Shown here: positions 4,013 to 54,870 of the stretch, piece after piece
How positions within the stretch are numbered: the first letter of the stretch is position 1
Layout of the letters: each line of letters opens with the position of its first letter
Assembly (NCBI GenBank): GCA_977017645.1
Contig: OZ360236.1
Coordinates: forward strand, 50,778,001-50,842,000
Direction: 5' to 3'
DNA: 64,000 nucleotides
Origin: Torpedo marmorata
Lineage: Eukaryota
Program-made: the position numbers and the translations under genes
Notes under the pieces: model-generated
Databases searched by the model: none
Told to the model about the DNA's origin: nothing
The model's input: the letters and a program-made list of their open reading frames with translations, nothing else

Positions 4013-4013
<1 letters not shown>

Positions 4014-15407: not shown

Positions 15408-15644
15408 AAAAAATTTAGACAATACCCAGTCAATAAAGAAAATCACCCCATTGTTCCTGGACAAAGTAACAACAGGATTTATGGTTTCTCTTTTGTAACG
15501 ATCAATGTGTCATCATAGCCTGGGTAAACATTCCAAAATAGTCCCAAGGAAATGCCAATAGTCCCACGAATATTGGAGGTACCATCCTTTCAGCGAGGCT
15601 CTTACCTTTCATATCAACTGGAAAGATCTTGTGACATTTTTTAA

Positions 15645-16040: not shown

Positions 16041-17862
16041 TTAAAGAACAGCTGGTTCACGTGGATCTTTCCTCATGGTTAGCACTGCCAGTCCTCTCAG
16101 GTCACCCTGGAATTAAACTTTAATGTCCTAGTCACTACTATGGTAAGAGAGAAACACGATAGGCTGCAGACGCTGTGATTGTAGTAAAAACACCGAAATG
16201 CTGGAGGAACTCAGCCGGTCTTTTCAGCATCTATAGGAGACAAAGATATATTGCCGACGTTTCGGGCCTGAGCCCTTCTTCAAGGAAAAATCAGAAAGGG
16301 CAGAAGCAGGATATGTCAGAAAGTCTCAGAATTCAAACAATGGGGGAGGAATCCAGACCAACAAAAGGTGTTAATTGGATGTGATAAGGGAGGAGGTAGA
16401 ATTTATTATATCTTTGCGAAAGGAGACAGGGAATGGAGAGATGATGGGGGGGGGGGGAGAAGCAGGGGGTGGGGTTTAACGAAAGCCAGAGAAGTTGATA
16501 TTAATGCCACCCGGTCGGAGGGTGCCCAGTTGGAAGATGAGGTGTTGTTCCTCCAATTTACGGGTGGTCTCAGTCTGGCAGTACATGAGGCCATGGACAG
16601 ACATGTCTGCAAGGGAATGGGATGGAGAATTGAAATGGGTGGCCACTGGGAGATCCACGCTATTGCGGTGGACAGAGCCGAGGTGCTCAACAAAGCGATC
16701 TCCCAGTCTGAGTCCAGTCTCTCCGATGTAGAGGAGACCACAGCGGGAGCACCGGATGCAGTAGACCTCGTTCTGGTCTTCAACCTGCTGTGGACCTTTA
16801 TATTTCCAACTGCCGCTGTGACATCAACCGTATCGACTTCACTACTCCCCTCACTCATTCCAATCTCACCCCCTCGGAACGCCTGGCCCTCCACTCTCTC
16901 CGCACCAATCCGAACCTCACCATCAAACCTGCAAACAAGGGTGGCACTGTTGTGGTCTGGCGCACTATCTGGCCGAAGCCAGACGACAACTCTCAGACAC
17001 CTCCTCTTATTTACCCCTCCAACAGGACCCCACCAAAACTCAAACCACTGTATCGCGCACCATCTCTGAACTCATCACTTCTGGTCACCTCCCTGGCACG
17101 GCCTCCAACCTGATTATTTCCCAACGCCCACCGCCCGTTTCTACCTCCTACCCAAGATCCACAAACCCAGTTTTCCCAGCAGACCCATCGTGTCCACGTG
17201 CTCCTGCCCCACCAAATTGGTCTCTGCTTACCTCAACTCTGTTTTGTCCCCCCTGGTTCAGTCCCACCTCACCTACATCTGGGACACTTCACATGCCCTC
17301 CATCACTTCAACAACTTTCCAGTTCCCTGAACTCGATTGCCTCATATTTACCATGGATATCCAATCCCTATACTACTCCATTCCCCATACTGAAGGCCTC
17401 AAAGCCCTTCGTTTCTTTCTGGAAAATAGAACCTACCAGTCCCCCTCCACCACCACCATCCTCCGGCTGGCAGAACTTGTCCTCACCCTCAATAATTTCT
17501 CCTTTGACTCATCGCACTTTCTCCAGGTTAAAGGGGTAGTCATGGGTACCTGCATGGGCCCCAGCTATGCCTGCCTTTTTGTTGGCTACGTGGAGCAATC
17601 CATGCTACAAGCCTACACAGGCAAGGCCCCTCAACCTTTCCTCCGCTACATCGATGATTACTTTGGTGCTGCCTCATGTACCCATGCTGAGCTCGTTGAC
17701 TTCATCCACTTTGCTGCCAACTTCCACCCCGACCTCAAATTCACTTGGTCCATCTCTAGCATCTCTAACACTCTCCCTTTCCTCAATCTCTCTGTCTCCA
17801 TCTCAGGAGACAAACTCTCGACAGACATCTTCTATAAACCCAACAACTCCCACAGATACCTC

Positions 17863-17944
17863 TTTTTTGAATATTTTATTTAATTTTTTTGATACATGTA
17901 ATAATCCCCAATCCCCTCTCCCCCTTCCCCCCAAACCCACCCCC
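17863..17944 (-). mobile_element. Extremely truncated L1-type 3' tail inside the Penelope RT
   Basis: G-tract, AATAAA and polyA on minus strand; 16-bp TSD ctcccacagatacctc at 17847-17862 and 17945-17960. Confidence 0.8.
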
Positions 17945-18917
17945 CTCCCACAGATACCTCGACTATACTTCTTCCCACCCTGTAAGGATTCCATTCCATT
18001 CCCTCAATTCCTCCGTCCCCGTCGCATCTGCACCCAGGATGAGATCTTCCATGCCAGATCATCAGAGATGTCCTCCTTCTTCAAACAATGTGGCTTTCCC
18101 TCTACCACCATCAATTCGGCACTCACCCGCATATCCTCCATTACCCGCACATCTGCCCTAGCCCCCTCCGCCCCCACGCGCAACAAGGATAGGATTCCTC
18201 TTGTCCTCACCTACCATCCCACCAGCCTCCGCATCCAACATATCCTCCTCCACCATTTCCGCCACCTACTACGTGATCTCACCACTAGACACATATTCCC
18301 CTCTCCGCCTTCCACAGGGACTGCTCCCTCCGTGACTCCCTTGTCCACTTCTCCCTCCCCACTAATTGACCTACCCCTGTGACCGCAGTAGATTCTCCAC
18401 TTGTGCCCACACCTCCTCCCTCACCACCATTCGGGGCCCCAAACAGTCCTTCCAAGTGAAGCAACATTTCACTTGTGAATCTGCAGGGGTCATCTACTGC
18501 ACCTGGTGCTCCATCGGAGAGACTGGACGCAGACTGGGAGATCGCTTTGTTGAGCACCTTGGCTCTGTCCACCGCAATAGCGTGGATCTCCCAGTGGTCA
18601 CCCATTTCAATTCTCCATCCCATTCCCTTGCCGACATGTCTGTCCATGGTCTCATGTACTGCCAGACTGAGACCACCCGTAAATTGGAGGAACAACACCT
18701 CATCTTCCGACTGGGCACCCTCCGACCGGATGACATTAATATTGACTTCTCTGGCTTTCGTTAAAACCGCTCCCCCCCCACCCCCTTGCTTCCCCCATCG
18801 TCTCTCCATTCCCTGTCTCCTTTCGCACAGACCTGATAAATTCTACCTACTCTCTTCCAATTAAAACCTTTTGTTGGTCTGGATTCCTCCCCCATTGTTT
18901 GAATTCTGAGACTTTCT

Positions 18918-18990
18918 GATATATCCTGCTTCTGCCCTTTCTGATTTTCCCTTGAAGAAGGGCTCAGGCCTGAAACGTCGGCAATATATC
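18918..18990 (+). ncRNA. Minimal hammerhead ribozyme motif (Penelope family 1)
   Basis: gatatat...cc-TTGAAGA-aGGGCtcagGCCT-GAAAC-GTC-ggcaatatatc; equivalent copies at 16254-16285 (-) and 21396-21427 (+). Confidence 0.7.
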
Positions 18991-19237
18991 TTTGTCTACT
19001 ATAGATGCTGAAAAGACTAGCTGAGTTCCTCCAGCATTTCGGTGTTTTCACTACTATGGTAACCTGGGAAAAACATAATTTGGACATTAAGTTTTAATTC
19101 ATTTAACAATTAAATAAAACACTTCTGTTTAATTGTTAAGGGAATATTGGAGAGAGATTTCTGACAGTTGAGAATCCTTCATCCGTGTTACAGAGAGTCT
19201 CAACTACATCAGAGAGATTGGGTGCAGACTGGGAGAT

Positions 19238-20511
19238 TTATTGTCATGACCAAGTCATGAAATTCGGTGTTTTGCGGCAGCATCATAGTGCAAGCATTCA
19301 TATTATAACCATCTTACGACATTACTATAAAAATATATATATAATAGTGCACGAAAAGTAAGGCAGTGTCTTTGGTTCATTGATTATTCAGGAATCTGAT
19401 GGCAGCGCGGAAGAAGCTGTCCTTGTGCCGTTGAGTGCTCGTCTTTAGGCTCCTGTACCTTTTTCCTAATGGTAGCAGAGGGAAGAGGGCATGGCCTGGG
19501 TGGTGGGGGTCTTTGAGGATAGAGGCTGCTTTTTTAAGACATCGCCTCGTGTAGATGTCCTCGATGGAGTGAAGTCTGGTGCCTGTGATGTCACAGGCCA
19601 AGTTAACAACCCTCTGGAGTTTATTCTTCAAGATTCAAGATTCAAGATTCAATTTATTGTCATAGTAATAAGACAGTGTCATATTCCATGAAATTTCTTT
19701 TTGCCTGCTGCAAGGCAGACAGATTCGCCACCGGCAGAAATTGCCTAAGCGCCTCTAACATTCCTTACAGTCAGAGAAAGAGAAGCAAAAGAGAGTCCCC
19801 CCAGAGTCACCGAGTGTCCGTAGATTCGCTTCCAGCACTTCCGCAGCCACACAGAGTCCAGTCCAAACGATCGGCATCCCGAGCTCCAGATCCGAACCTC
19901 CAACACGGTCAGGTCGCCCTCGGCACCCCCTCGCATCCCGGTTCCGATACCTGGTACTCCTCCAGCCAGTTCAAGCCAGCCTCCAGCAGTCCGCAGCCCG
20001 GCGTGAGTCCCCCGACAGCAGTCTCCAGCAGCCCACAGCCTCCGCGGGTTCCTCGCCTCGAGTCGTCAGCAGCCCGCCGCATGCACTGGTCCTTCAGCGT
20101 CAGAGCCCCTCACCGGTCCGCCGCTGTGGTTACCGTCCCATGGGTCTTCTCCTCCGCTTCTCCTTCTCAGACGGGGGGTGATCTTCCCATCCTCTGGTGC
20201 CCTGCTCCAGTCTCCCGCTTCCCCGGTGGCTGCTGCCGGTTAAAAGGCGCTGCCATCTTGGGCGCATACCCCGCAGTCGCGGGATCTCAAATAAAAACCA
20301 CCGTCGGCTCCTTTACCGGGCCGTTCAAAGCCCGTGCGGAACCGACGGCAGTTGACTGGGCGGCTGGACCCCGCGGGAGTGCTGTGTCTCCGCTCCCTTG
20401 TTCCCCGCGGGTCTGCACCAGCGGCAGCGCTGCTATTACAGCGGCTCCGGCAGCACTGCCATTACTCACGCCATTACTCACGTCCTGAGAGTTGGCGCCT
20501 CCATACCAGGC
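19238..20511 (-). mobile_element. Rex1 3' fragment (19238-19628 and 20482-20511) inserted in a Penelope remnant
   Basis: KLQRVVN.ACDITG...LPLGKRYR; sequence resumes as gtcctgagagttggcg after the nested element. Confidence 0.85.
19629..20481 (-). mobile_element. CpG-rich ~850-bp non-autonomous retroelement, young copy
   Basis: Highly similar to 56109-56949 and 63339-64000; tgacaataaa + (ATCTTGA)n tail; interrupts Rex1. Confidence 0.85.
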
Positions 20512-21498
20512 GTGGATCTCCCAGTGGGGACCCATTTCACTTTCCCATCCTATTCCCTTGCTGACATGTCTGTCCATGGTCTTATGCACTGCTAAACTGA
20601 GACCACCCGCAAATTGGAGGAACAACACCTCATCTTCCGTCTGGGCACCCTCCAACCAGATGGCATTAACATTGACTTCTTCAGTTTCCATTAAACCACC
20701 CCCACCCCTTCTTCTTCCCCTGTTGCCTTTCCCCCAGCTCTGTCTGTTTCTCTCTCGCAACCCAGAAAAGGAATCTCAGTTTTGTATGTGATGTCATGTC
20801 TGTACTCTGACAATAAATCTGAATCTGAATCTGACTCTTCTCTTTTCCCTCCATCTCTTTTCACGGAGCCAAAATCAATTCTCACCTCTCCTCTTATCAT
20901 ATCCAATTAACACCTTTTGTTGGTCTGGATTCCTCCCTGGCCAGTCCTCAGTCTTTATTGTTACACCTTCCTGTTCTTTGCTTATTCCTTATAGAAGGGC
21001 TCAGGCCCGAAAAGTCGGTAATATATTGGGGTAACGGGGTATTGAGAGAACAAATGTAACAATGTAACAATGTACATTGATGAGAATGTGTCGATATGAC
21101 TGACATTATGAGTGTAAAAAGACTTGAACTCTTTTCCTGTTTGTAATTTTAAAAAAAATTCTAGACAAGGTATGTCTAATGACACATTGGAGGATCAACA
21201 CCTCATCTTCCGACTGGGCAGCCTCCAACCGGATGGCATTAATATTGACTTCTCTGGCTATCGTTAAAACCCCTACCCCACCCCCTTGCTTCCCCCGTTG
21301 TCTCTCCATTCCCTCTCTCCTTTCGCATAGACATGATAAATTCTACCTAGTCCCTTATCACATCCAATTAACATCTTTTGTTGGTCTGAATTTTTCCTTG
21401 AAGAAGGGCTCAGGCCCGAAACGTCGGCAATATATCTTTGTCTCCTATAGATGCTGAATAGACCGGCTGAGTTCCTCCAGCATTTCGGTGTTTTTACT
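20509..21498 (+). mobile_element. Penelope GIY-YIG/terminal-repeat remnants in partial tandem (20509-21030; 21186-21498)
   Basis: DLPV.THF..DMSVHGLM..KLEEQHLIF; hammerhead motifs near 20988 and 21396; small Rex1-type tail insert ~20760-20833. Confidence 0.8.
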
Positions 21499-21785
21499 GA
21501 AGGCTTCCTGATTGTGTCAGAAGTTTGGATATGGAGCTCGGGTTGCAGATGAATCGAACAGGAGTCTATGAAGCTGCAGAGTCTGTGGGAGCACTGGAGG
21601 CGAATCCACAGACAGTGAGTCTGAAGCGACTCTCTTTTGCTTCTCTTTCTCTCGTACTGTAAGGGGTGGCGGCCAATACTAATGGCGACTCTTTGTCTGC
21701 TTTACCGTTGGCAAAAGTTAAACTATATCATGTATGTTACATTTTTAATGTATTGTTACGTAACAATAAAAGGAACCTTGGAACT
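21498..21785 (+). mobile_element. Old relative of the CpG-rich family (3' part)
   Basis: gactctcttttgcttctctttctct...tgtctgc...tcatgtatgttacatt...acaataaaaggaaccttg. Confidence 0.65.
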
Positions 21786-21852
21786 GGTTTGCACAGAATT
21801 ATTGAAGTCAGAAAAAAATCCTTCATCTCTGATGCAACTGCTCCTTAAAGAG

Positions 21853-24800
21853 TAAAAACACAAAATGCTGGAGAAACTCAGCAGGTCAAACAGTGTCCTT
21901 CATGTAGCAAAGGTAGAAATACATAACCGACGTTACAGGCTTGAGCCCTTCATCAAAGTATGAGAAAATGCCAGCAGGCGTCCAAACAAAAGAGTGAGGG
22001 GGGGAAGGGGGGTGGCAAAGGCAGGAGATGATAGGTGGAGAAAGGAGGGAGGGGACAGCAGAAATGAGGGGGAGGAGGGATGGCTGGGTGGGTGGAAGAA
22101 CAGGAAGGACAGGGAAGGGGGGAAGGGAAAGAAAAGGTGAGCAGGTTTAGTGGAAAGCAGAAAAATCAATGTCAATGCCATCTGGCTGGAAAGTGCCCAG
22201 ACGCAAAATAAGATGTTGTTCCTCCAATTTGCAGGTGGTCTGGGTGGGATAGTACATAAGGCCATGGACAGACATGTGAGTGTGGGAGTGTGACTCGGAA
22301 TTGAAATGGTTGGCTACTGGGAGGTCGCTGTTGTTGTGGACGGAGAGGAGGTGCTCAGCGAAGCGATCTCCCAATCTACGACCGGTCTTTCCGATGTAGA
22401 GAATGCCACAAAGGGAGCACCGGATGCAGTAAATAAGTTCTCTGGATGTACAAGTGAAGTGTAGTTTCACTTGGAAGGCCTGTTTGGGGCCCCGGACCAT
22501 GGTGAGGGAGGAGGTGTGGGCACAGGTGTTGCACCTCCTGCGGGCACAGGGGAAGGTACTGGGGGGGAGATTGGTGGGGAGGGATGAGTGTACGAGGGAG
22601 TCTCTGAGGGAACGGTCCGTACGGAAGGCAGAGAGGGGAGGAGAAGGGAAGAGGTGTCTGGTAGTGGGATCCTGTAGTGCCGGAAATTCCGGCGGATAAT
22701 GTGTTGGATGCGGATGCTGGTGGGGTGGGAGGTGAGGATGAGGGGGATTCTATGTTTGTTGCTTCTGGGGGCAGAGGGGGACAGGGCAGATGAGTGGGAA
22801 ATGGAGGAGATGTGGGTGAGGGCTGAGTTGATAGTGGTGGAGGGGAAGCCACGTTTGTGGAAGAAGGCAGACATTTCGGAAGATCTGGACTGGAAGACCT
22901 CATCTTGCGAACAAATGCGGCGGAGATGGAGAAATTGAGAGAAGGGGATGGAATCCTTGCAGGGGACAGGGTGTGAGGATGTGTAGTCAAGGTAGTTGTG
23001 GGAGTTAGAGGGTTTGTAGTATATTTCGTTGGAAAGCTTGTATCCCGAGATGGAGACAGAGAGATCCAGGAAGGGGAGACTGTTATCGGAGATGGACCAG
23101 GTGAGTTTGAGATCAGGGTGGAAGTTGGCCGCGAAGTGGATGAAGTTGACAAGCTCATCGCGGGTGCATGAGGCAGCCCTGATGTAGTCGTCGATATACC
23201 GGAGGAAGAGTTGAGGGTTCTTCCCTGTGTAGGCTTGCAGCATGGATTGCTCCACAAAGCCTACAAACAGGCAGGCATAGCTGGGACCCATGCGGGTACC
23301 CATGGCTACTCCTTTGATTTGGAGGAAGTGGGATGAGTTAAAGGAGAAGTTATTTATTGTGAGGACAAGTTCTGCCAGGCGGAGGAGGGTGGTGGTAGAG
23401 GGTGCCTGGTTGGGTCTTTGGTCCAGGAAGAAGCTAAGTGCTTTGAGACCTTCTGTGTGGGAGATAGAGATATAAAGGGATTGGATGTCCATCGTGAAGA
23501 TGAGGCGGTCCGGTTCGGGGAATCTGAAGTCATTGAGGAGATGGAGGGCATGTGAGGTGTCACGGATGTAGGTGGGGAGGGATTGGACCAGGGGAGAAAA
23601 GATAGAGTCAAAGTAAGATGAAACTTGTTCGGTGGGGCAGGAGCAGGCAGAAACAATGGGTCTGCCCGGATGGTTGGGTTGTGTATCTTGGGTAGAAGGT
23701 AGAAACAGGCAGTTCTGGGGTGCGAGAGAATGAGGTTGGTGGCCGTGGAGGGGAGGTGACCAGAGGTGATGAGGTTGGAGATGGTGTTGGAGACAGTGGC
23801 TTGATGTGCAGTGGTGGGGTCCTGTGGGAGGGGTCGATAGGAGGAGGTGTCTGAGAGCTGTCGACTGGCCTCGGCAAGGTAGAGGTCAGTGCGCCAGACC
23901 ACCACCGCACCACCCTTGTCTGCGGGTTTGATGGTGAGGTTGGGATTGTTGCGGAGAGAGTGGAGGGCAGAGCATTCTGAGGAGGTTTACTCGGAATTGA
24001 AATGGTTGTTGCGGATGGAGATGAGGTGCTCAGTGAAGCGATCTCCCAATCTAGACCGATCTCTCCGATGTAGAGAATGCCACAAAGGGAGCACCGGATG
24101 CAGTAAATAAATTCTCTGGATGTACAAGTGAAGTGTTGCTTCACTTGAAAGGCCTGTTTGGGGCCCTGGACTGTGGTGAGGGAGGACGTGTGGGCGCAAG
24201 TGTTGCACCTCCTGCGGGCACAGGGGAAGGTGCCGGGGGTGCGATGGGTGGGGATGGATGTTTACTCAGAATTGAAATGGTTGGCTACTGGGAGATTGCT
24301 GTTCTCAAGCTCAAAACGTCGGTTTTGAAGAGCTCAAGCCCGAAACGTCGGTTATGTAAGGACTCAAGCCCGAAACGTCAGTTATTTATCTTTACCTTTG
24401 CTCTTTGCCAGCTTGGGACCACCCTGCTTCACTCCAGGCCTAGAACCGTGGAAGGGCGCTGGAGAAATTGTTGATGGCGGCGGTGCGAGTAACTCTCAGC
24501 GGCTCCTCTGGGCTTGTGCATGTTTTATGTTAAGTTGAGAGCCGTGCACAGTCAGCGACCGGTAGGATCGGATCAATGAAGCGTCGAGGAACACCTTGAA
24601 CACAACAATAGCATCGTGTGAGGTCCCAGGGCACTGTTTGACGGACTGGACTGATACTGCAGTAGTAGGCCTTCACTCCTCGGGGTCGAGTGGCGATGGC
24701 AGCCGAGGTGAGGATGCGATGCGAAGGCAGCTGAGGACGGTTCGGAGGATGGTGGCAGTGGAGCTCGGAGGACGGGGTTGAGACCTCTTCCACGCAAGTA

Positions 24801-25596
24801 CTCACAGAGGTTCTGCGACCGAGAGGACTGGAGTACGCTGTATGCTGCGGAGACCAACGGGGGAGTTCGATGGTGAGGCCGGCCGGGGCAAATGACGGGA
24901 AACCCAGTCGCAGTGGCACTGCGGGGTGCGATGTTGGAGGGAGATGGAGGCGACGTCAGTGGCCAAGGACTCAGTGGGGTTTTTCCCTTCTGGACATGGG
25001 CGCAGGGGCGCTGAACCCTACAGAACTCTGGGTTAAATGAACTGGGGCGGTTCTGTGCTGTGTAGTTTTGTTGTGGTATCGAGCCTATTGTCCGACCCTA
25101 CTGTTTGTAGTATTGTAGTCACTGTATAGTAACGAGGGGGGGGTTATTCGTGTATGGCGTGTCCCTTGTGGATTATTGTGTGTTTAGTACGTCCTTACCG
25201 CGAGCATTTTTAAGATAGCTACGCTTGGTTTGCGGCGGCTTCTTGGCGGGTAAGCGGTTGGACCTGGTTGTTTGTTTTGTTTGCGCCCATGCTGGCTGCT
25301 TGCCTGCTGGGGATGGCCGCGCATTAATCCGCAGCGACTTCCTCGACAGGTTGAGTGGTGGGCAGTGGATGTTTTGGTTAGTTTTGTTTTGTTTGTCAGC
25401 AGGCATTGTCTTGGCCTTGTCTCGTGTTTTATGGGCACTGACCGGGGAAACTCAATTTCGTTTTGCTCTATGTAAGTAGTGTAAAATGACAAATAAATTA
25501 TTCTGATTCTGATTCTGATTAAAGGACACTGTTTGACCTGCTGAGCTTCTCCAGCATTTTGTGTTTTTACATGGTGTCTACAGATTTTTGTGATTT
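21853..25596 (-). mobile_element. Penelope-like element (family 2) with partial tandem 5' duplication and inverted terminal arm
   Basis: RT ORF 22467-23492 (MDIQSLY, GVAMGTRMGPSYA, RYIDD), GIY-YIG 22147-22500; 23986-24303 repeats the endonuclease region; plus-strand arm 24304-24402 and 25521-25596; TSD act(g/a)ctccttaaagag at 21837-21852 and 25597-25612. Confidence 0.9.
24403..25520 (+). mobile_element. ~1.1-kb CpG-rich non-coding retroposed element with (TTCTGA)n tail
   Basis: Interrupts the Penelope arm (tacctttgct | aaaggacactg); ends aatttcg...tgacaaataaa-ttattctgattctgattctga. Confidence 0.7.
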
Positions 25597-25874
25597 ACTA
25601 CTCCTTAAAGAGCTTTGCAATTTTGAACAACTACATTTGTGGAGTTGCAATAACAGCCAGATCTCAACCAGCAACCAGGTTACAAGGCATCAACGACTCC
25701 ATGAAATAATGCTGATTGGACGGTCAGTCTCACTCTTTGATGTACATCCGGCTCTGCAAGGTTCACAGGTTGTTATCATCTCCAAAATGGCAGATTACTG
25801 ACATGGTAATCAGTCAGCTGAGGAAACTGTCAGCATATCCTCTGCATGCAATCTGATGCTCTCACTAACCTCAG

Positions 25875-32939: not shown

Positions 32940-33222
32940 TTTAAAAATATTTTTTTAATATTTTATTTAAAATTTTAAATCACACGATAATACATGTTTA
33001 TAAAATACAAAATTACCAGAATACATGTGATATATTTTCACCCTCCCCTCCCTCCCTCCCCCCTCCCTAACCCACCCACCCCTACTACTCTAATAATATA
33101 GAAAGAAAGAAAAAAAAGAATAGAATTTGGAGAATGTCAATCTAAAAAAGAACTATACATTAATTTTATTGTGGAACACAGGTTTGCCAGTCAGACCTGA
33201 TATCAAGAGATCCTCAAATCAT
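32940..33222 (-). mobile_element. L1 3'UTR/polyA tail (D), similar to the 3'UTR of element A
   Basis: Shares gatttga.gatctct...tagattgacattctcc, G-tract and polyA with 41681-41954. Confidence 0.8.
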
Positions 33223-34988
33223 TGCTTCAAGAAATATGTTGCAGGAATGCAACCCTTTTTTAAAAAGTATATTTTATTTGTATTTTTATCAATAACAAAA
33301 ATAATACATCATCAAATATAATATTCGTCTGTTGACTATTATACTAAAAAACAACAACAAAATTACAAACAAAGGAAAACCCACCCACCCAATTCCCCCC
33401 TAAATGAAAGAAAAGAGAGGAATAGAATAAGAAAAGGTTGAAGTATAAAAGGAAAGAAGACGTTGGAGGCTCGTCGCCCACCCCGCAGGCTTAAATTACT
33501 TGGCATACTCGGATTTCTGAAGAGGAAATGGACATAGGTCCTGGAGGCGAGGGGGGGGGCCTGGTTATAGATTTACAGCCATGTGTTGTAAATATGGAGT
33601 CCAAATCTTTAAAAATATATCATATCTATTTCTAAGATTATAGGTAATCTTCTCAAGGGGAACACAATTGTACATTTCCTCATTCCATCTTGTCATACCT
33701 AGATGGGAATCAGACTTCCATGTGACCGCTATACATTTCCTGGCCACCCCCAATGCGATCTTCACAAATTTTATTTGAAATTTTGACAGCCTCATCTTAG
33801 GTCTTACGCCGGAGATATTGCCCAATAGAAATAATTCTGGGCGATGTGGGAACTGAATTTCGGTAATTTGTTCTAAGAGTTTCCCTAAGTCTGTCCAGAA
33901 AGGTTTTACTTTGGGGCATGACCAGGTTAAATGTAAAAACGTTCCTATTTCTTTGCTGCATCTAAAACATTTATCTGATATTTCTGATTTAAATTTATTC
34001 AATTTTTGCGGCGTGAGATTGCACCAGTCTGTATCTCACATTTACTGTGTTTTTCATACTGTCCCGACATAAGTCTGACTCCCATCTCTGTCTAGATCTA
34101 TGTAGCCCCTGTTTAGGGGTTCCTTTTTGTAGTAAAAGATAGGCTGCTGAAATAAACTTCTTTGTGATCCCCTTTCGAATGAAAGTCTCCACTTCAATTT
34201 ATCCCTTAAGTAAGATCTCAGCTGGAAATAGCAGAAGAGTGTATTAATCATAATACCATACTTATTTTTTAATTGTTCAAATGACATAAGTTGTAAAAAA
34301 TTACATTATAATTTATTACAAACATACAAAATGGAAAAGTTAATTGAAAGAACTAAACAAAGATATTATGAGTTAGGGGAAAGAGCACATAAAGTTTTGG
34401 CATGGCAATTAAAAAAAGATCAAGCTTCTAGAACTATAAATGCTATTAGGAAAAAGAATTCTAGGGAAATAACTTATAAAACACGAGAAATAAATGATTC
34501 TTTTAAGGATTATTATTTAAATTTATATAAATCTCAGATTGATCAAGATAACTCTAAAATTAATAGATTTTTATCTAAAATTACATTACCTAAACTAAAT
34601 ATTCAAAGTAGAGAAGCTTTAGATTTACCTTTCTCAATGAGGGAAGTTAATGGTTCTTACTTCCTTAACGAGTGGTAAATCTCCAGGTGATGATGGATTT
34701 CCAGCAGAATTTTATAAAGAGTTTAAAGATTTATTGATACCTCCGTATATGGATGTATTAAATCAAATTACGGAAACCCATTCATTATCGGACACATTTT
34801 TAAATGCAATAATTAGAGTTATACCTAAAAAAGATAGAGATGTATTGAAAACTGAATCATATAGACCTATTTCACTGTTAAATGTAGATTATAAGATAAT
34901 GGCAAAAATTTTAGCAAATAGAATGGCTAATTATTTACTAGATTTAATTCATGTAGATCAAGCTGGTTTTATTAAGAATAGATATTCA

Positions 34989-37264
34989 TTATGTGGCAAT
35001 TTAAACTGAGTGGTTCTTTTACATACAGTATAGTCTCCCTCTGTAAGAGGCATAATTTCACTTTTATCCCAATTTATCTTGTAACCAGAGACTTTTCCAT
35101 ATTCCTCCAGTTTGAAATGTAGTCTTTGCAAAAAAGTCTCAGGCTCTGTCAAGTCTATTAAAACATCATCCGCAAATAGACTAATTTTATGTTGCTCTTG
35201 ACCAACTGTAAATCCCTTAATTGCCAAATCACTTCTAATAGCCTCTGCTAACGGTTCTATAGCTAATACAAATAAAGCTGGTGACAATGGACACCCTTGC
35301 CGACTAGATCTTGTTAAACAAAACGAAGTTGATATTTGTCCATTAGTCACTACTTTGGCTTTTGGAGCATTATATAATGCTTTAATCCAATCTATATAAG
35401 TCTTCCCAAATCCAAATTTCTCCAAAACTTTGAATAAAAAGTCCCATTCCAACCTGTCAAAAGCTTTCTCTGCATCTAATGCCACTGCTACACTTAGTAC
35501 TTTTCTTTTTTGGGCTAAATGAATAATACTAAGTAACCTTGCTACATTGTCAGCTGCTTGTCTTTTTTTTATAAAACCTGTTTGGTCCATATTTACTAAT
35601 TTTGGCAAAAATTTTGTTATCCTATTTGCCAGAATTTTTGCCACAATCTTATAATCTGCGTTCAATAATGAAATTGATCTATATGATGAGGGTTTCAATG
35701 GGTCTCTATCTTTTTTTGGTATTACTGTAATTATTGCAGTGGAAAAAGATTCTGGAAGTGTATGGGTCACTGAAGCTTGCTGTAACATATCCATAAAAAT
35801 AGGAATTAATAATTCCTTGAATTCTTTATAGAACTCTGGTGGAAAACCATCCTCTCCCGGCGCTTTATTACTTTGTAATGAGCTAATTGCTTCCTTTACT
35901 TCCCTCTGCATAAACTGTGTACTTAATTCTAATCGCTCTTGTGTATTTAATCTTGGTAGATTTATCTGTGATAAGTATCCATCAATTTTACTATCGTCTT
36001 GTAGAGATTCTGATTTATATAAATCAGAATAAAAAATTTTTAAAGAATCATTTATTGTTTGAGGTTTATAACTAATAACATCAGTCTCAGTTTTAACTGC
36101 ATTGATTGTTCTTGATACTTGTTCTGTTTTTAATTGCCATGCTAATACTTTGTGTGCACGTTCACCTAACTCATAATATCTTTGCTTAGTTCTTATAATA
36201 GTTTTTTCCGTTCTATAAGTCTGTAACATATTATACTGTAGCTTTTTATTAGTTAATTGTCTACGTTTATCTATAGAACTCCTCTTTTGCAAATCTTTTT
36301 CTAAAATCGTTATCTCTTTTTCTAGTTGATCTATTTCATTCATGTAATCTTTTTTAATTTTTGAAGAATAACTTATAATCTGACCTCTTAAAAATACTTT
36401 TAACGTTTCCCATATTACAAATTTATCAGGCACTGAATTTAAATTTGTTTCACAAAATATTTGAATTTGCCTCCTTATAAAATCACAAAAATCTGTTCTT
36501 TTTAATAATAAAGGATTTAATCTCCATCTGTATACCGATTTCTCTATATCAGGTATAACCACTGTCATCAATAAAGGTGAATGGTCAGACAAAATTCTAG
36601 CTTTATATTCTGCTTCTAAAATTCTATCTTGCATTTGAGCTGAGACTAAAAATAAATCAATTCTAGAATAAGAATCGTGTCTAGTAGAATAAAATGAAAA
36701 ATCTTTATCTCTGCGATGAATTCTCCTCCAGGCATCAATCAAGTTTAAATCATTCATTAATACCAACGTAGCCTTTGCTGCTTTAGTTCTCCTCACACCT
36801 CTTGTAGATTTATCTAAAACCGGGTCTAAGCAGAAGTTGTAATCTCCCCCTATTATAATATTTTCATGCGCTTCCGCTATGTTAAGAAAGGTCTCTTGAA
36901 TAAATTTGTCATCATCCATATTGGGAGCATATATATTCAAAAAAGTCCAAAATTCTGCATATATCTGACAGTGAATCATTACATATCTCCCTGCAGGATC
37001 TGTCACAACATTCTGTATCTTAATTGGAAGATTATTTTTTATTAAAATTGCCACACCCCTTGCCTTACTATTAAATGAAGAAGCCATTACATACCCCACC
37101 CAGTCCCTTTTTAATTTCAGATGCTCTTTCTCTGTTAAATGTGTCTCTTGTAAAAAAGCCACATCAACACCCAATTTTTTAATATATGCTAAAACTCTTT
37201 TCCTCTTAATTGGTTCATTTATCCCATTAATATTAAAATTCAAAAATCTTAATATATTGCTCAT
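34989..37264 (-). pseudogene. L1 ORF2 endonuclease + RT portion (~760 codons, uninterrupted)
   Basis: Starts MSNILRFLNFNING; FLQETH, GGDYN, SDH, QGCPLSP and FADD motifs. Confidence 0.9.
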
Positions 37265-39607
37265 TTTTAATTATATTTCATTCCTGTTAATGTTATCTCT
37301 TCCATCCCAGACCCCTATCTCACTCTCTTTAACTTCTTTCTTCAGTCTCCATTGAGCCAACATGTGTCCCCTCCAGCAATTCACACAGATAAAAAAAAAA
37401 AATACAATTAATGAATACATTCCCCCCTCTCTACAAAAAAGAAAACATAATCTAACTACTTCCCCTCTAGCGCTATTAATATATACAGCGCTACCCCCCC
37501 TCTATTTTACGGGTCGCGACCTTGGCCGCGAAAATACACATGATTGTAGTAGAAATCAAGATCTCATCCTCCTCCCCCCAACCCTCCTGGTATAACATTT
37601 TTAACATAGACATTCTTTTATCATCAGTTTTACCAAATTACAAACTGATATATATCACTCCATTAACAAATTTTAAAAAACATTCATTTTTTAACGATCA
37701 TCCCTAATCAGCGGCAGTTCATTAGCAAATTCCTCTGCTAGAGTACAATCTGTAAAGAAATATCTTGGGGTTCGGACAGATAATAAATTAAAAAATCTAT
37801 ATAAATGGAACTATGTACCATTACTTAACAAGATTAAGGAGGATTTAGAAAAGTGGACTAATTTACCAATTACACTGATAGGAAGAGTTAACTGTATCAA
37901 AATGAATATATTTCCAAGGATACAGTATTTGTATCAGACTATACCTATTTTATTACCACAGGTTTTCTTTCAGGACTTAAATAAACAAGTGCGAAAATTT
38001 TTATGGAAAGGTAAAATGTCAAGAGTTTCAATGGAACGTTTAACATGGAAATATTAATTGGGGGGTTTGCAACTCCCTAATTTTAAGAATTATTACCGAG
38101 CGGCACAAATGCGATTTGTTGCTTCTTTTTTTGAAACTGAAGAAAGACCTGCGTGGGTTGGAATAGAACTAGGAGAAATAGGAGAAAAGGTGCCACAAGA
38201 ATTTATATACAAATGGAATTCAAAACTATTGACAGGTGTTAAAGAAACGCCGTTATTAAAACATTTGATTAATGTTTGGTATAAGGTTAATGATGACATA
38301 GGGTTGAAAGGAAGTATATCACCCAAAGTGCCTTTGATACAGAATAATCTTATACCATTTACAAAAGATAATCAATTTTTAAATACTTGGTCATTAAAAG
38401 GAATAAAGAAGATAGAAGATTGTTATGAAGGAAATCAATTGATGTCATTTATACAATTACGGAATAAATATGGAATACCCAATAATACTCTTTTTTGTTA
38501 TTTTCAACTAAGAGGTTATTTAAGAGAAAAACTAGGTCCAGATTTGTTGTTACAAGATTGTAGTGAGGTAGAAACTCTTATTAGGAAAGGAAATATTAAG
38601 AAATGTACTTCTATAGTGTATTCTTTGCTACAAAGGGGAGCTTTAAAACGAGGACTTCATAAATCTAAACAAAGATGGGAACAAGATCTTAATGTTACAA
38701 TTGATGAAAAAAGGTGGTCGGATTTATGTTTAGATAGTATGACTAATACTGTTAATGTAAGATATAGATTGGTACAATATAACTTTTTACATCAATTATA
38801 TTTTACACCACAAAAATTGAATAAGATAAATTCTACGATATCAAATAAATGTTTTAGATGTGGTGAAGAAGCGGGAACCTTTTTACACTCAACGTGGTCA
38901 TGTTCAAAAGTTTAAGGTTTTTGGATAGAGCTAGGAAATCGGTTAAAACAAATTACAGGTGTTACATTTCCACAGAATCCTGACTTATTTTTATTGGGAA
39001 ATGTGGAAGGAATTAGACCAAAATTGAAGTTATCTACATGGCAATTGAAATTTGTAAAAATTGCATTAGCAGTAGCAAGGAAATGTATAGCAGTAACTTG
39101 GAAATCGGATACAAATTTAAGTATGGATAGATGGAACTCAGAGATGCAGAGTTGTATTCCATTGGAAAGAATAACATATAACATGAGGAATAAATATGGG
39201 GTATTTTTGCAAATTTGGCGTCCATTTATCCAATTATTAGGAATGAATATTTAAATGTGTTGCTCTACATCCTAGACCCTGCTGACTCTCTTAAATTTAA
39301 ACTTAAAGAATGAATACTGTTGAATGTCTCGCATCGAGCCGTGGACCCGTACGGATGGTTTTTTTGATAAATGTCAATGTCTTCTCCTCTTTCTTCTTTT
39401 TTTTCTTTATTTTTAGTTAGGGGAGGAAGTAAGGGATGGGAGGGGTGGAGGGTGGGTTGTTTTAGTGAGGGTGGGTTGAGATGGGGTTAGAATCATGGTA
39501 ATACAAATTTTGTTTGTATTTAATTCATTAATGTCTATCATATATTTTGTACTATTTTGTATTATTGTGAAAAATTTGAAAACTTAAAATAAAATATATT
39601 AAAAAAA
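34989..39607 (+). mobile_element. L1 element B (inner) with 5' inversion
   Basis: 34989-~37758 on minus strand (ORF1 end, spacer, ORF2 up to FKLPHN); ~37758-39607 on plus strand (KYLGVRTD... to polyA); TSD aagaatagatattca at 34974-34988 and 39608-39622. Confidence 0.93.
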
Positions 39608-42600
39608 AAGAATAGATATTCAAAAGATAATATAGCTAGATTAATTAGTTTAATTAATTTACAAAAAAAGAAGGAAGATTTATCATTAGTATTAATGCTA
39701 GACGCCGAAAAGGCTTTTGATAGATTAGAGTGGAATTTTTTATTTAAGGTATTGGAGAAATTTGGTTTTGGAATTACATTTATTAATTGGATTAAAACTA
39801 TATATAAAGAACCATCAGCTAAAGTAGTTACAAATTTCTTCAAGATTTCCTTTGACTCGATCTACTAGACAAGGATGTCCTTTGTCACCAGCGTTATTTA
39901 TTTTGGCGATAGAACCTTTGGCAGAATTAGTTAGAAAAGATCCTAAAATAGTTGGTATTAAAGTTGGAATGGAAGAACATAAAATTAGTTTATTTGCAGA
40001 TGATGTATTGATATATATGACAAAATCTACTACATCTTTAGTACAATTGTCTGCGTTATTGAGAGAATATGGGGAAATATCTGGATATAAAATTAATTCT
40101 GATAAAAGTGAAATTATGGCATTATCACAAGGGGATTATAGTAAATGTAAAGAAATTACACAATTTAAATGGGCAAAGGAAGGAATTAAATATTTGAGAA
40201 TAAGGATTGACACAAAATTGGCTAATTTATATAAATTAAATTATTTACCATTATTTGTGAAAATAAAAAAGGATTTAGAAAATTGGAAAGATTTACCTAT
40301 AACTTTAATGGGAAGAGTAAATTGTATTAAAATGAATGTTTTTCCAAGAATTCAATATCTTATTCAATCAATTCCTTATGAAATTCCTCAAAAGTTTTTC
40401 AAAGATTTAAATTCAATTATTAGAAAATTTTTATGGAAAGGAAAGTTAGCAAGAGTAGGTATGGAAAAATTAACTTGGAATTATGAAATAGGTGGTTTAC
40501 AACTTCCTAATTTCCAAAATTATTATAAAGCAGCTCAATTAAAATTTGTTAATGAATTTTTTGATTCAACTAAATCTTCTGCTTTGATTAAAATAGAACT
40601 AAATAATATAGGAGAAGATTCCAAAGAAGAAGTTATTTATAAATGGGATTCTAAATTAATATCAACAAGAAAGAAAAATTCTCCTATTCTTAAACATTTG
40701 TTAGAAATATGGAATAAGATGGATAAGGAAATAGGAGGAAAAGGATTGATTTCTTCAAGGATGCCTTTATATCAAAATGGACTTATTCCATTTACTATTA
40801 ATAATCAATTATTTAAAATTTGGTTTCAAAAAGGAATTAAGAAAATAAATGATTGTTTTGAAGCTGGGAAATTTATTACTTTTCAAAGAATGAAAGATAA
40901 ATTTAATATATTAGATAATACACTTTTTGCTTATTATCAAATTAGAGCTTTTCTGATTGAGAAATTAGGTTATGCTTTGATTTTACCAAGACAGAATGAA
41001 TTAGAATTATTAGTTACTAAAGGAGATGTAAATAAATTTATTTCTCAAATGTATAAATTGTTTCAGAGGAAAATTCCTAAAGTAGGAATTCATAAATCAA
41101 GATTAAAATGGGAATTAGATTTGAATGTAATAATAGATGAAAATCATTAGAAAGAATTATGTAAATTAAGTATGACGAAGATTATTAACGTTAGATATAG
41201 ATTAGTACAATACCATTTTTTTCATCAATTATATTTAACACCTAAAAAACTAAAGAAATTTAATTCGACATTATCAGGTTTATGTTTTAGATGTAATAAA
41301 GAGGAAGGTTCTTTTGTACATTCTACATGGTTTTGTCCAAAAGTTTATGATTTCTGGTTGAAAGTTAAAAAAATTTTAGATAAGGTATTTAAGATTACAT
41401 TTCCAATGGATCCTATGATATTTTTGTTTGGAGATATTAGAAAATTTAGTATTAAGATGAAATTAAATATGTATCAAATAGAATTTCTGCGAATTGCTTT
41501 AGCTGTTTCAAAGAAATGTATTGCTATTACTTGGAAATCTGATCTCGATTTAGGGTTAGAAAGATGGCATGCAGAACTTCGTTCATGTATACCACTTGAA
41601 AAAATTACTTATAACTTACGGAATAAATATCATTTCTTTTTAAAAATATGGAGCCCATATATGAAAGCTGTTGGCTTAAGGATTTGAAGATCTCTGGACA
41701 TCGGATATACTGGCTACCTAACCTCCATAATAGAATTAGTTTATAGATGTATTTATTAGATTGACATTCTCCTTACCTTATCCTTTTCTTTTTCTTCTTT
41801 TTTTAAATTATTTTATTAGATTAGTGGGGTTGGGAGGGTTGGGGAGGGGAGGGAGGGAGGGGGGGGTGAAAATGTATCACAAGTATTTGATAATTTTATA
41901 TTTTATTTTATGTATTTTGTGATTTAAAATTTTTAAATAAAATAATAAAAAAACATGACATAAGTTGTCCCTGCTCATAGCAATCCTCGACACATCTGAT
42001 CCCTTTCCGGGACCAGGCGTCCAGGATCTTATTATCCATTGTAAAAGGTATACACCTATTTTGAGCCAGGTGCGTATTTGGAGATAACCTCCCCTTATTC
42101 CCAATTTGATCATTTATTTTATACCAGGTATCAATTATATGTTTCAACAGGGGGGTTTCTTTCACACCAGATATTAATTTTTTATCCATTTGTATATAGT
42201 CTTTTGCTATCTTCTCTCCCACCTTATGCAGTTCCATCTTTACCCAGGAAGGCTTGTCTTCCCCTTCAAAGAAGGAGGTGACAAATTTCATTTGGGCTGC
42301 CCAATAATATTTTTTGAAATCTGGAAGTTGTAAACCTCCCAGTTCATATCTCCATGTTAATTTTTCCGTGGAGACTCTGGCTACCTTACCTCTCCAAATG
42401 AACTTCCTGATATATTTATTTAATTCTTGAAAGAACCCTCGAGGCAATGGTATAGGTAGTGTTTGGAAAAGATATTGGATCCGTGGCAATATATTCATTT
42501 TTATACAATTGACCCTGCCAATAAGTGTTATTGGCAGTGCCGTCCATCTGTTAAGATCCTCTTCAGCTTTTCTAAGCAAGGGGAAGTAATTTAACTTATA

Positions 42601-44999
42601 CAAATCTTGTAAGTTGTTATTTGTTTTAATGCCTAAATATTTTATCCCATTTGCCGGCCACTTAAAATTTAAATTCCTTTGGTATTGAGTATAATCTCCA
42701 CCTGTAAGTGGCATAATTTCACTTTTGTCCCAATTTATCTTATAACCGGAAATTTTCCCATAATCTTCCAATTTTAAGTGCAATTTTTCTAATGAAACTG
42801 CTGCTTCTGTCAGGTATATCAGTACATCATCCGCAAATAAGTTAATTTTGTGCTCTTCCTGGTTAACCCTGAATTCCTTAATGTCTGGATCTCGCCAAAT
42901 AGCTTCTGCTAACGGTTCTATAACCAAAATAAAAAGAGCTGGAGACAGTTGACAGCCTTGCCTGGTAGATCTGGATAGTGGGAATGCTGAGGAAATTTGT
43001 CCATTAGTCACAACTCTAGCTTGGGGCTTATTATATAAAGCCTTAATCCAGTTTATAAAATTCTGTCCAAGTCCAAATCGATCCAGCACTTTAAATAAAA
43101 AATCCCACTCCACTCTATCAAAAGCTTTTTCTGCATCCAGGGCCACAGCGACACCTTGATACCCTCTTGATTGTGCCAGATGTATTATACTAAGCAATCT
43201 GCTTACATTATCTACTATTTGTCTTTTTCGTATAAAGCCTGTTTGGTCCATATTTATCAATTTTGGCAAAAAAACTGCCAGTCTGTTTGCCAAAGCTTTT
43301 GCAATGATCTTATAGTCTGAATTTAATAATGAAATAGGTCTATAAGAAGACGGCTTTAATGGATCCCTATCTTTTTTGGGTATCACTGTAATTATTGCTG
43401 TTGAGAATGATTCTGGGAGGGTATGTGTCTCGACCGCTTGATCCAACACCTCCATAAGTAGTGGTATCAAAAGATCTTTAAATTCATTGTAAAATTCAGG
43501 TGGAAATCCATCCTCCCCCAGAGATTTATTAATTTGCAATGAACCCAGTGCCCCCTCCATCTCTACTTGAGTAAAGGGGGCATTGAGCTCCCTCTGTTCT
43601 TCTAAATCTAGATTTGGAAGATCCAATTGTGACAGGAATCCTTCAATTTCACTAATATTCCTTTGAGATTCTGATTCATATAGTCTAGTGTAAAATTGTT
43701 TAAAGGCCTCATTAATATCCTGTGGTTTATAGGAAATCCTGTCTGTTTCCATTTTGATCGCATTAATCGTTCTTGAGACCTGTTCTGTTTTCAACTGCCA
43801 TGCTAAGACCTTTTGGGCTCTTTCCCCTAGCTCATAGTATTTTTGTTTAGTTCTGGTTATCATTTTCTCCATTTTATATGTTTGTAATGTATTATACTTG
43901 AGTTTTTTATTAATTAATTTTCTACGTTTTTCCTCTGAGCCTGACTTTTGAAGGTCTTTTTCCAAATGAGATATCTCGTGTTCTAATTCATCCACCTCCC
44001 TTGTATATTCCTTTTTCATCTTTGTAGTGTAACTGATTATTTGTCCTTGCAAATATGCTTTTAAAGTATCCCAGATAATAAATTTATTTGTAGTAGAAGT
44101 ACAGTTGGTCTCACAGAACGTTGTAATTCCTTTTCTCATAAAATTATGAAACTCCTGTCTTCTCAACAGCCCTGAATTTAATCTCCATCTATACACCGTC
44201 TTTTGTTTATCTGGCATTGTAATTTTTAATATCAGAGGTGATAGTAGTCTTGCTTTATATTCAGCTGCCACAATTCTACTCTGTAAATGAACCGATATCA
44301 AAAATAAATCTATCCTGGAGTATGAATCATGTCTGCATGAATAAAAAGAATAGTCCCTTTCCCTTGGATGGAGTCTTCTCCAGGCATCCATTAAATTCAG
44401 CTCCTTCATTAACTGCAAAGTAGCTTTAGCTGCTTTCGTCCTTGTGATTGTTCTTCCTGACTTATCTAGAACCGGATCCAGACAAAAATTAAAGTCTCCA
44501 CCCACTATAATATTTTGCTGTGCATCAGCCAATTTCAAAAATGTTTCATGTATAAATTTCTCATCATCCGTGTTGGGAGCATACAAATTCATCAGGGTCC
44601 AGGGCTTTGAATATATCTGACAGTGAACCATTATATACCCACCTGAAGGGTCTGCAATTATGTCTTGCGCTTTAATTGGAACATTTTCCCCTATTAAAAT
44701 TGCTACTCCCCTTGCTTTTGAGTTAAATGAAGATGCTATGACCTGACCCACCCATCCTCTCTTCAATTTTTGGTGTTCTTTTTCTGTTAAGTGAGTTTCT
44801 TGAAGGAAGGCCAGGAGTGCCAATGACTCTTGACCGACTACCATCCAATCCCATCAGTAATGTCCATCTATCTGGCTTCCGAATGGTGATGGAAGGAGAG
44901 GCACTGTTGCAGGACACTCAGTGTCAAAGCTCGTAGAACCCCTTTAAAGAAAGCGTCGGTCAAGATGTGATGAGCTTCATAACATCAGGACAAATGATT

Positions 45000-53629: not shown

Positions 53630-54012
53630 ATTTATGGGAGAGTCACAAACAAGGGGACAAAGCCACAGAATCTTTTAGGTTTGAGGGATGTGGAGATCTC
53701 TTCTCTCAGAGAATAGTAAATCTGGAATTCTCTGAACCTGAGAGTGTTGGAGGCCAAATCAATAGATATAGTTAAGGTGGAGATTGATCAATATTTTAAA
53801 GATTGGGAATTGAGATTTTGGGGAACTAGCACAGAAGATGATTTGAAATGAGCATAAATCAGCCATTTTCATATGGAATGGCAGGACACTCATCTTATTT
53901 TTGTTTGTCTTCTTTAATTTTTGTCCATCCCTTATCACATCTGCCATGATCATATTGAATGGTGAGGCAGGGATAAGGGGCCCGGTGGCCGAGCCCTGCA
54001 TCTATTTTCTTA
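53630..54012 (+). mobile_element. Old CR1 3' tail(s)
   Basis: ttctctcagagaatagtaaatctggaattc...atgatcatattgaatggtga. Confidence 0.6.
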
Positions 54013-54870
54013 GTAAAAATACAATGCTGGAGAAACTCAGCAAGTCAAACAGTGTACTTTATGTAGCAAAGATAAAGATACATAACCAACTTTTCAGGCT
54101 TGAGCCCTTCATCAAGGATTGAACAAAATGTAGGCAGGTGCCTGAACAAAATAGTGGGGGGGGGAGAGGCAGGGGTAGGAGCACAGTCCCACAGGCAGGA
54201 GATAATGGGTGGATAAGGGAGGGAGGGCACACCAGCAAACAGGGGAAGGGGGGAATAGCCCTGTGAATGGAGAGGGAAGAGGTTGGAGAGTTGGAGGAAA
54301 GAAGACAGAGGGATTGGGAAAGAAGGAGAATGGGGAGTAGGCTAGCGGAAACCAGAGAAATCAATGTCAATGCCATCCAGTTGGAGAGTGCCCAGACAGA
54401 AAATTAAGTGTTGCTCCTCCAATTCACGGGTGGCTTTAGTTTGACAGTACATGAGGCCATCGACAGATATGTCAGCACGGGAGTGGGGCGCAGAATTGAA
54501 ATGGTTGGCCACTGGGAGATCCCCGTCATCGATGTGGACAGAGCGAAGGTGCTCAGCGAAGCAATCTCCCAGTCTGCGTCCAGTATCTCCGATGTAGATA
54601 AGGTAAAGGTAAAGGTTCCATTATTGTCACGTAATACTACATTTAGAATGTAACATACATGAAATTCTTTAATTTTTGTCTGCCGTAAGGCAGACAGAGA
54701 GTCGTTACTTTGTCCAGCGCCCCTCACAGAAACCTACAGCACCTAGTGTTCCTAGGCGGTCTCTCCTCCAAGTACCGACCAGTTCTGTGCCTGCTTAGCT
54801 TCCGAGATCAGACAATCCCAGTCGTATTCAAGCTATTGGTGCTGTTCCAGTCTCTCCGATGTAGAGAAAC
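54013..54870 (-). mobile_element. Penelope 3' fragment interrupted by the 5S SINE
   Basis: GIY-YIG remnants; hammerhead-like motif at 54081-54117. Confidence 0.85.
54599..54845 (-). mobile_element. 5S rRNA-derived SINE, copy 2
   Basis: Close reverse-complement homolog of 2558-2812; 20-bp TSD tccagt(a/c)tctccgatgtaga at 54579-54598 and 54846-54865. Confidence 0.9.

What the first reader, a model, noticed from the sequence alone, without database searches (positions are those of the whole stretch)
34974..39622. Twin-priming 5' inversion (2.8 kb) in a non-mammalian L1
Seen: within one TSD pair, the 5' 2.77 kb is inverted. It runs from an ORF1-like C-terminus (FFTDCTLAEEFANELPLIRDDR*) through ORF2 to FKLPHN, and the forward part restarts at KYLG (~37758), only ~2 codons later by comparison with A and C (FKW...GIKYL). 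The TSD end (reverse complement tgaat) resembles the expected missing sequence, as an internal primer would. Established: twin priming is well described for mammalian L1. Inference: the same mechanism operates in this lineage.
Basis: partly seen in the sequence, partly recalled or inferred. Interest (0 to 1): 0.7.

Follow-up and report, generated by a model that had tools for sequence, protein, structure and literature searches.

The report
Front-flipped L1 copies in a ray
A dead L1 jumping gene in a ray genome has its front 2.8 kb inserted backwards, and roughly 6-13% of the related copies sampled show the same flip, likely because both cut DNA ends started copying one RNA ("twin priming"), a process described mainly from mammals.

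Summary
Confirmed. One 15-nt target-site duplication (34974-34988, 39608-39622) encloses an L1 whose 5' 2771 nt are inverted and head-to-head with a forward, A-tailed 3' part. Both halves are 97% identical to one collinear full-length copy. The 7 nt missing between them (TGGAATA) match the end of the duplicated target at 6 of 7; the internal junction shares 2 nt. The host is a ray (RAG1 94% to an electric ray). Inversions are routine here: 10 of 167 similarity-picked copies (6%) and at least 8 of 60 tail-anchored copies (13%), against 31% in human and chimpanzee. Primer pairing is above chance over 10 other copies (p=7e-4) but not for this copy alone (p=0.1) nor in a 3-copy hold-out (p=0.26). 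The target nucleotide, inside an older L1, was hit at least 41 times, and one older-subfamily copy inverted at exactly the same RNA position. My idea that this site promotes inversion failed its control (4/29 against 4/31). Twin priming at insertion is the best explanation; it is inferred, not shown. No reads bridge the junction. The scan noted single such copies before, in this genome and other rays. Known mechanism, new lineage, now with frequencies.

The parts
34974..34988 (+). Left copy of the 15-nt target-site duplication; its 3' end is the inferred second (top-strand) primer
34989..37759 (-). Inverted 5' part of the L1, 2771 nt (family positions 1197-3967)
   Evidence: 97.2% to L011, 98.3% to family majority, ends mapped
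34989..37264 (-). ORF2 N-terminal part: AP endonuclease and most of the reverse transcriptase, open frame
   Evidence: Pfam Exo_endo_phos and RVT_1; human L1 ORF2p E=5e-132
37691..37759 (-). Last 22 codons and stop of ORF1
   Evidence: matches the ORF1 end of full-length copies; full ORF1 of L052 hits human L1 ORF1p at E=6.5e-10
37758..37759 (.). Inversion junction, 2-nt overlap (AA) shared by both halves
37758..39254 (+). Forward part, ORF2 C-terminal portion from KYLG, with CCHC motif; two premature stops (38055-38057, 38913-38915)
39255..39609 (+). 3' UTR and short A tail (39601-39609)
39608..39622 (+). Right copy of the target-site duplication
34294..34988 (+). Older host L1, part upstream of the insertion (about 70% to the inserted family)
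39623..41954 (+). Older host L1, part downstream of the insertion, to its A tail; host TSD at 34281-34293 and 41955-41967

Best explanation
This is a single, now dead L1 insertion whose 5' part lies inverted inside one target-site duplication, and it likely arose by twin priming during insertion. Inferred steps: (1) the L1 endonuclease nicked the bottom strand at TT/AAGA and reverse transcription began on the A tail; (2) the top strand was cut 15 nt away before that copy was finished, freeing a 3' overhang ending TATTCA; (3) this overhang paired with UGGAAUA in the same RNA (6 of 7, one bulge) and primed a second cDNA that ran 2771 nt towards the 5' end, stopping in ORF1; (4) the first cDNA stopped where the second primer sat, which is why exactly those 7 nt are missing; (5) the two cDNA ends were joined over 2 nt of microhomology and filled in. 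Shown: layout, TSD, gap, junction matches, subfamily identity, recurrence in the family. The outcome is common for L1s of this genome.
For: One 15-nt TSD, head-to-head layout, halves of one subfamily. The 7-nt gap equals the predicted primer site; copy L041 lacks the same 7-mer at another place and its TSD also ends TTCA. 10 of 167 similarity-picked elements are inverted, all head-to-head, with TSDs of 13-17 nt and the far end of the inverted piece within 2 nt of the TSD; no forward-inverted-forward copy among 201 elements (pieces of 25-30 nt or more, 90% identity or more). Primer-to-RNA pairing over these 10 copies exceeds a two-sided random-join null (Fisher p=7e-4). Tail-anchored searches give at least 8 of 60 inverted. 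L249 sits at the same host nucleotide with the same far breakpoint but comes from an older source: 74 of its 100 differences from the family are shared with L227, 4 with this copy, 68 lie at third codon positions. TSD length and both microhomologies fit the human description (PMC2912911, PMC4245944).
Against: The primer match of this copy alone is weak (p=0.09-0.10); the scoring was set after I had seen the first 8 copies, and the 3 hold-out copies alone give p=0.26. 3 of 11 copies have no strict 5' microhomology (L088, L149, L170), against 4.6% in human (PMC2912911). By duplex energy the site used is unremarkable (9% of windows as stable or more; the primer slice in that call was shifted by one base). 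Of 4 inverted copies of the host family at this site, 2 show little pairing (L244, L266). Two copies lack 0.65 and 1.2 kb between the halves (L031, L170). No public contig bridges the junction. The model itself still lacks direct experimental proof (PMC10760644).
Confidence: 0.85

Rival explanations
1. Inversion at insertion without a second priming: a long first cDNA broke, and the far piece was joined back flipped by host end-joining, using microhomology at both seams.
For: It also predicts one TSD, a head-to-head layout and short microhomologies; several copies pair poorly at the 5' junction and two have large gaps.
Against: It does not predict that the missing bases are the ones matched by the target end (also L041), nor the same breakpoint in two independent insertions at one target (L249).
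Confidence: 0.08
2. Snap-back: the first cDNA folded on itself and copied its own sequence before joining the target.
For: Described for R2-based insertions (PMC11371274, passages); L088 and L145 duplicate 20 and 4 nt.
Against: Snap-back makes the inverted piece a copy of sequence also present in the forward piece; here the two do not overlap at all (family 1197-3967 and 3975 onward).
Confidence: 0.02
3. A normal insertion was inverted later by recombination or repair.
For: These copies are often rearranged later: nested insertions and internal deletions are common.
Against: The far breakpoint falls on the TSD edge in all 11 copies with both ends mapped; simple flipping of a 5'-truncated copy gives no reason for the primer match; no internal inversion among 201 elements.
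Confidence: 0.02
4. Assembly artefact in nested repeats.
For: The region is three L1s nested in each other; neither public run bridges the junction.
Against: A clean 15-nt TSD, a 7-nt gap with primer match, and 23 further inverted copies on many contigs, one with the same breakpoint, are not what misassembly gives.
Confidence: 0.02
5. Two separate insertions that happen to lie head to head.
For: L1 copies do pile up in each other here, often in opposite directions.
Against: The inverted piece has no tail and no TSD of its own, ends 7 nt before the forward piece begins, and has the same divergence.
Confidence: 0.01

Closest known systems
5'-inverted human and chimpanzee L1 insertions (twin-priming model of Ostertag and Kazazian 2001, paper not held; as described in PMC2912911 and PMC4245944)
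   Same: One TSD of about 15 nt around the whole, endonuclease-type target, head-to-head inverted 5' part, microhomology at the 5' and inversion junctions.
   Different: Host is a ray; frequency 6% (10/167) to at least 13% (8/60) against 30.9% (639/2068); 5' microhomology looks shorter and more often mismatched at the last base; target reads T(C/T)/AA(A/G)A rather than TT/AAAA.
The single inverted zebrafish Nimb-2_DR insert recovered in chicken DT40 cells (PMC4245944, passages)
   Same: A 5' inversion made by a non-mammalian LINE outside mammalian cells.
   Different: That was one cell-culture event of a non-L1 element; the paper found no inversion for human L1 in chicken cells or for ZfL2-1 and concluded that inversion depends on host and element. 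Here it is inherited and frequent in a fish-type L1.
Fish-type L1 elements (best named ORF2 relatives: Kryptolebias 54%, Oryzias 41%, Polypterus 40%)
   Same: About 5.8 kb, short 5' UTR starting with a G run, ORF1, spacer, ORF2 with AP endonuclease, RT and CCHC, A tail, mostly 5'-truncated copies.
   Different: I found no report of their inversion frequency in the library searched; the zebrafish L1 papers of Ichiyanagi and Okada were seen only as citations.

Membership tests
L1-clade LINE | ORF1 related to L1 ORF1p (coiled coil, RRM, CTD) | tested here: met
   ORF1 of full-length copy L052 hits human LINE-1 ORF1p structures, E=6.5e-10; no Pfam family passes its cut-off
L1-clade LINE | ORF2 with AP endonuclease then RT, closest to L1 ORF2p | tested here: met
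   Pfam Exo_endo_phos and RVT_1; human L1 ORF2p E=5e-132 against R2 E=3e-17
L1-clade LINE | C-terminal CCHC motif | tested here: met
   CFRCGEEAGTFLHSTWSC in the translation; zf-RVT E=1.4e-4, under its cut-off
L1-clade LINE | A tail, TSDs near 15 nt, T-rich/A-rich cut site | tested here: met
   median TSD 15 nt in 83 non-inverted copies; site T(C/T)/AA(A/G)A in 91 copies
L1-clade LINE | RT tree places it in L1 proper rather than the Tx1 branch | not tested
   no tree built; no named Tx1 reference was fetched
Twin-primed 5'-inverted L1 insertion | One TSD of 10-20 nt around both pieces | tested here: met
   15 nt, unique pair
Twin-primed 5'-inverted L1 insertion | Inverted piece is the upstream part of the same RNA, 5' ends facing, far end on the TSD | tested here: met
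   family 1197-3967 inverted, 3975 onward forward; same subfamily
Twin-primed 5'-inverted L1 insertion | Target end pairs with the RNA at the inversion point | tested here: inconclusive
   2 nt strict, 6 of 7 with one bulge; p=0.09-0.10 alone, p=7e-4 over 10 other copies, p=0.26 in the 3-copy hold-out
Twin-primed 5'-inverted L1 insertion | Microhomology at the inversion junction | tested here: met
   2 nt here, which chance can give; 8-9 nt with one mismatch in L146 and L197, 5 nt in L153, none in L031
Twin-primed 5'-inverted L1 insertion | Second cDNA is really primed from the top-strand end by the element's RT | not testable with these tools
   needs an assay; also unproven for human L1 (PMC10760644, passage)

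The most novel reading that the evidence does not exclude
Twin priming is not a mammalian speciality but an old, routine outcome of jawed-vertebrate L1 insertion: several L1 subfamilies of this ray invert 10-20% of the time, and the priming point is set by sequence so reproducibly that two independent insertions at the same target nucleotide inverted at the same base of the RNA. Repeated hits of one multi-copy target would then be a natural replicate experiment for a model that still lacks direct proof.
Probability: 0.6. Interest if true: 0.55.

Novelty: new member of a known kind. Interest (0 to 1): 0.42.

Why it matters
The papers I could read describe 5' inversion almost only for human L1 in human cells and argue that it depends on host and element (PMC4245944). 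Frequent inherited inversions in a ray L1 move the trait back to a lineage that split from mammals very early in jawed-vertebrate history (recalled: over 400 million years) and fit the idea that a long, about 15-nt overhang is what permits it. The multi-copy target hit dozens of times lets one ask, with the primer held constant, where in the RNA the second priming lands. The insertion itself is dead and has no sign of function.

Tried and rejected
(1) 'Inverted copies have TSDs ending in TTC': 5 of 8 against 2 of 83 when first noticed, 0 of 3 in the hold-out set noted in advance; rejected as a general rule. (2) 'This target site promotes inversion': 9 of 34 resolved insertions against 9 of 118 background, p=0.006, but control sites searched the same way gave 4 of 31 against 4 of 29 here, p=1.0; rejected. 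The excess came from the search design: similarity-picked samples miss copies with very short forward parts and older subfamilies. (3) 'Sites with a cut-like word on both strands are hit more': the two predicted sites gave 3 and 4 insertions, the two negative controls 14 and 4; not supported. (4) Duplex-energy ranking of priming sites was uninformative (primer slice off by one). (5) Public contigs: uninformative for the junctions; none bridges 37748-37756, and a hole proves nothing. (6) A search for more copies with this copy's exact far junction found only L249. (7) Opposite-strand pieces in L010/L026 (85% identity), L110 (2.3 kb away), L029 and L050 (another repeat) were not counted as inversions. 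(8) Three key papers were not held (Ostertag and Kazazian 2001; Ichiyanagi et al. 2007; Kojima and Okada 2009).

Full report
1. What is in the sequence. The 15-mer AAGAATAGATATTCA occurs twice in the window, at 34974-34988 and 39608-39622. It encloses a minus-strand piece (34989-37759, 2771 nt: last 22 codons of ORF1, spacer, ORF2 from its ATG to FKLPH) and a plus-strand piece (37758 onward: ORF2 from KYLG with two premature stops, 3' UTR, A tail). The element interrupts an older L1 (34294-41954, own 13-nt TSD), which itself interrupts a third, minus-strand L1. Public contigs of the host family read across the site without the insert.

2. Comparison with an intact copy. Own-genome searches with the two halves shared a hit that proved to be a full-length collinear copy, L011 (5846 nt, 14-nt TSD). 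The inverted and forward parts are 97.2% and 97.5% identical to it, 98.3% and 98.4% to the family majority. Across 40 copies that cover both halves their distances correlate (rho=0.78; medians 2.3% and 2.4%). The halves do not overlap; 7 nt (TGGAATA) are missing; the reverse complement of the TSD end matches these at 2 nt strictly and 6 of 7 with one bulge; the inversion junction shares AA.

3. Element and host. ORF2 hits human L1 ORF2p at E=5e-132 and R2 proteins at 3e-17; the ORF1 of L052 hits human ORF1p at 6.5e-10; the best named relatives are from bony fishes. The genome (6.2 Gb) has one RAG1 match, 94% identical to an electric ray, 89% to a stingray and a skate, 85-88% to sharks, about 80% to tetrapods: a ray. 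In 91 copies the cut site reads T(C/T)/AA(A/G)A and non-inverted TSDs have a median of 15 nt.

4. How common is the inversion? I fetched 6.8-10 kb around hits of similarity searches, each limited to the best 40 (all new hits fetched except 4 of 10). First set: 6 of 103 inverted, 74 of the 103 with a credible TSD. Hold-out: 3 of 61. With L088-L090: 10 of 167, 6.0% (CI 2.9-10.7). Of 33 further copies picked by their ORF1 end (one presumed duplicate not fetched), none was inverted. All 10 are head-to-head, with TSDs of 13-17 nt and the far end within 2 nt of the TSD; gaps between the halves are -20, -4, 1, 7, 21, 21, about 20-28, 40, about 650 and about 1200 nt. No forward-inverted-forward copy was seen in 201 elements. 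This design misses copies with very short forward parts. Pattern searches anchored on the last 12 nt of the element gave at least 8 of 60 inverted (13%, CI 6-25), counting as non-inverted every copy whose forward part ran beyond the 1.5 kb in view; these include older subfamilies. Both figures are below the 639 of 2068 (30.9%) for human and chimpanzee (PMC2912911, Table 2; p=2e-14 and 0.003).

5. Is the target end a primer? I scored pairing of the last 12 nt of each TSD with the RNA at the far breakpoint against random joins that allow chance extension on both sides. This copy: p=0.09-0.10. Seven others of the first set: 0.003-0.37; three hold-out copies: 0.15-0.37, combined 0.26; all ten without this copy: p=7e-4. 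The scoring was set after I had seen the first eight. Strict 5' microhomology is 0-4 nt (none in 3 of 11). So the signal is real over the set but modest, and often has a mismatch at the last base.

6. The target site. Copy L149 is inverted at the same nucleotide of another host copy, with other breakpoints. A pattern search found 41 L1 tails at exactly this host site (reversed pattern: 0). Control sites of similar representation (12-19 against 12) gave 7, 5, 14 and 4 matches, and 6 at a sister-family site; after dropping 4 that were host sequence and 1 doubtful, 3, 4, 14, 4 and 6. So the site is a preferred target, 3 to 13 times the controls. Of 40 left junctions followed by two non-A bases, 30 were viewed: 8 full-length, 8 truncated, 7 inverted (2 of them already known), 7 not insertions or unclear. 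One, L249, has the same far breakpoint as this copy. It is 93% to the family; 74 of its 100 differences are shared with L227, 4 with this copy, and 68 fall at third codon positions, so it comes from an older source and is an independent event. That is one repeat, not a series (one search found no third).

7. A hypothesis that failed. The site seemed rich in inversions (9 of 34 against 9 of 118, p=0.006). With like-for-like controls the rates were 4 of 29 and 4 of 31. I reject it, and also the TTC-end rule (0 of 3 in hold-out) and the two-strand cut-site prediction noted in advance.

8. Mechanism. Shown: layout, TSD, gap, junction matches, one subfamily, recurrence. Inferred: bottom-strand nick and tail priming; early top-strand cut 15 nt away; the freed end primes at UGGAAUA; the first cDNA halts there; the two cDNAs join over AA. 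Snap-back needs overlap between the halves, which is absent. Later inversion does not explain breakpoints on the TSD edge. Flipped capture of a broken cDNA remains possible but does not predict the gap or L249. Neither public run bridges the junction, so long reads are still wanted.

9. Literature. PMC4245944 (passages): inversions only with human L1 in human cells, apart from one zebrafish Nimb-2_DR insert in chicken cells; long TSDs proposed as the condition. PMC2912911 (passages and parts 2-3 of 5): frequencies and microhomology. PMC10760644 (passages): the model needs experimental validation. PMC11371274 (passages): snap-back in R2. PMC4476161 (passages): twin priming described for mammalian genomes. 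PMC5381506: no occurrence of 'inversion' or 'inverted'. PMC5389967 and PMC2718515: the term only in reference lists. Ten searches (listings and abstract starts) showed no report for cartilaginous fishes, but the library lacks most subscription papers; Ostertag and Kazazian 2001, Ichiyanagi et al. 2007 and Kojima and Okada 2009 were not held, and the zebrafish L1 papers of Ichiyanagi and Okada were seen only as citations and may already hold counts. No supplements were read.

10. Verdict. Observation confirmed, interpretation supported. A known outcome of L1 insertion in a lineage where it is little documented. Earlier notes of this scan list single cases in this genome and other rays, sharks, a lizard, a coral and a dinoflagellate (unchecked).

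Noticed in passing
window 32945-44853: Three L1s nested: the inverted element sits in host A (34294-41954, TSD ATGACATAAGTTG at 34281-34293 and 41955-41967), which sits in a minus-strand L1 whose two parts flank it.
   Followed up: partly
window 34974-34988 and L212-L271: This nucleotide of the host L1 family carries at least 41 independent-looking L1 insertions genome-wide, from several subfamilies including the host family itself, 3 to 13 times more than control sites; cause unexplained.
   Followed up: partly
L217:1-1230 and L299:1400-1480 (oriented as): Inverted pieces that run to the very 5' G run of the element and join a forward part of only about 300 and 40 nt: second cDNA reached the RNA's 5' end.
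   Followed up: partly
L165 (oriented 3055-4907): Within one 13-nt TSD, three same-strand pieces in shuffled order (family 4694-5267, 3002-4221, 5763-end): template jumps without inversion.
   Followed up: no
L160 flank, about 2750-5160: A host-family L1 that looks 5'-inverted, found among 48 flanking copies screened; TSD not checked.
   Followed up: no
window 35492-35534: A 43-nt near-perfect palindrome inside ORF2, shared by family copies.
   Followed up: no
L181, L198: Copies hit at 99% over 200 nt but only 81-82% to the family over their length: possible recombinants or gene conversion between subfamilies.
   Followed up: no
window 13800-25600 and 54000-54630: Several copies of another RT-bearing repeat family in both orientations, with long inverted arms; weak RVT_1 hits.
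   Followed up: no
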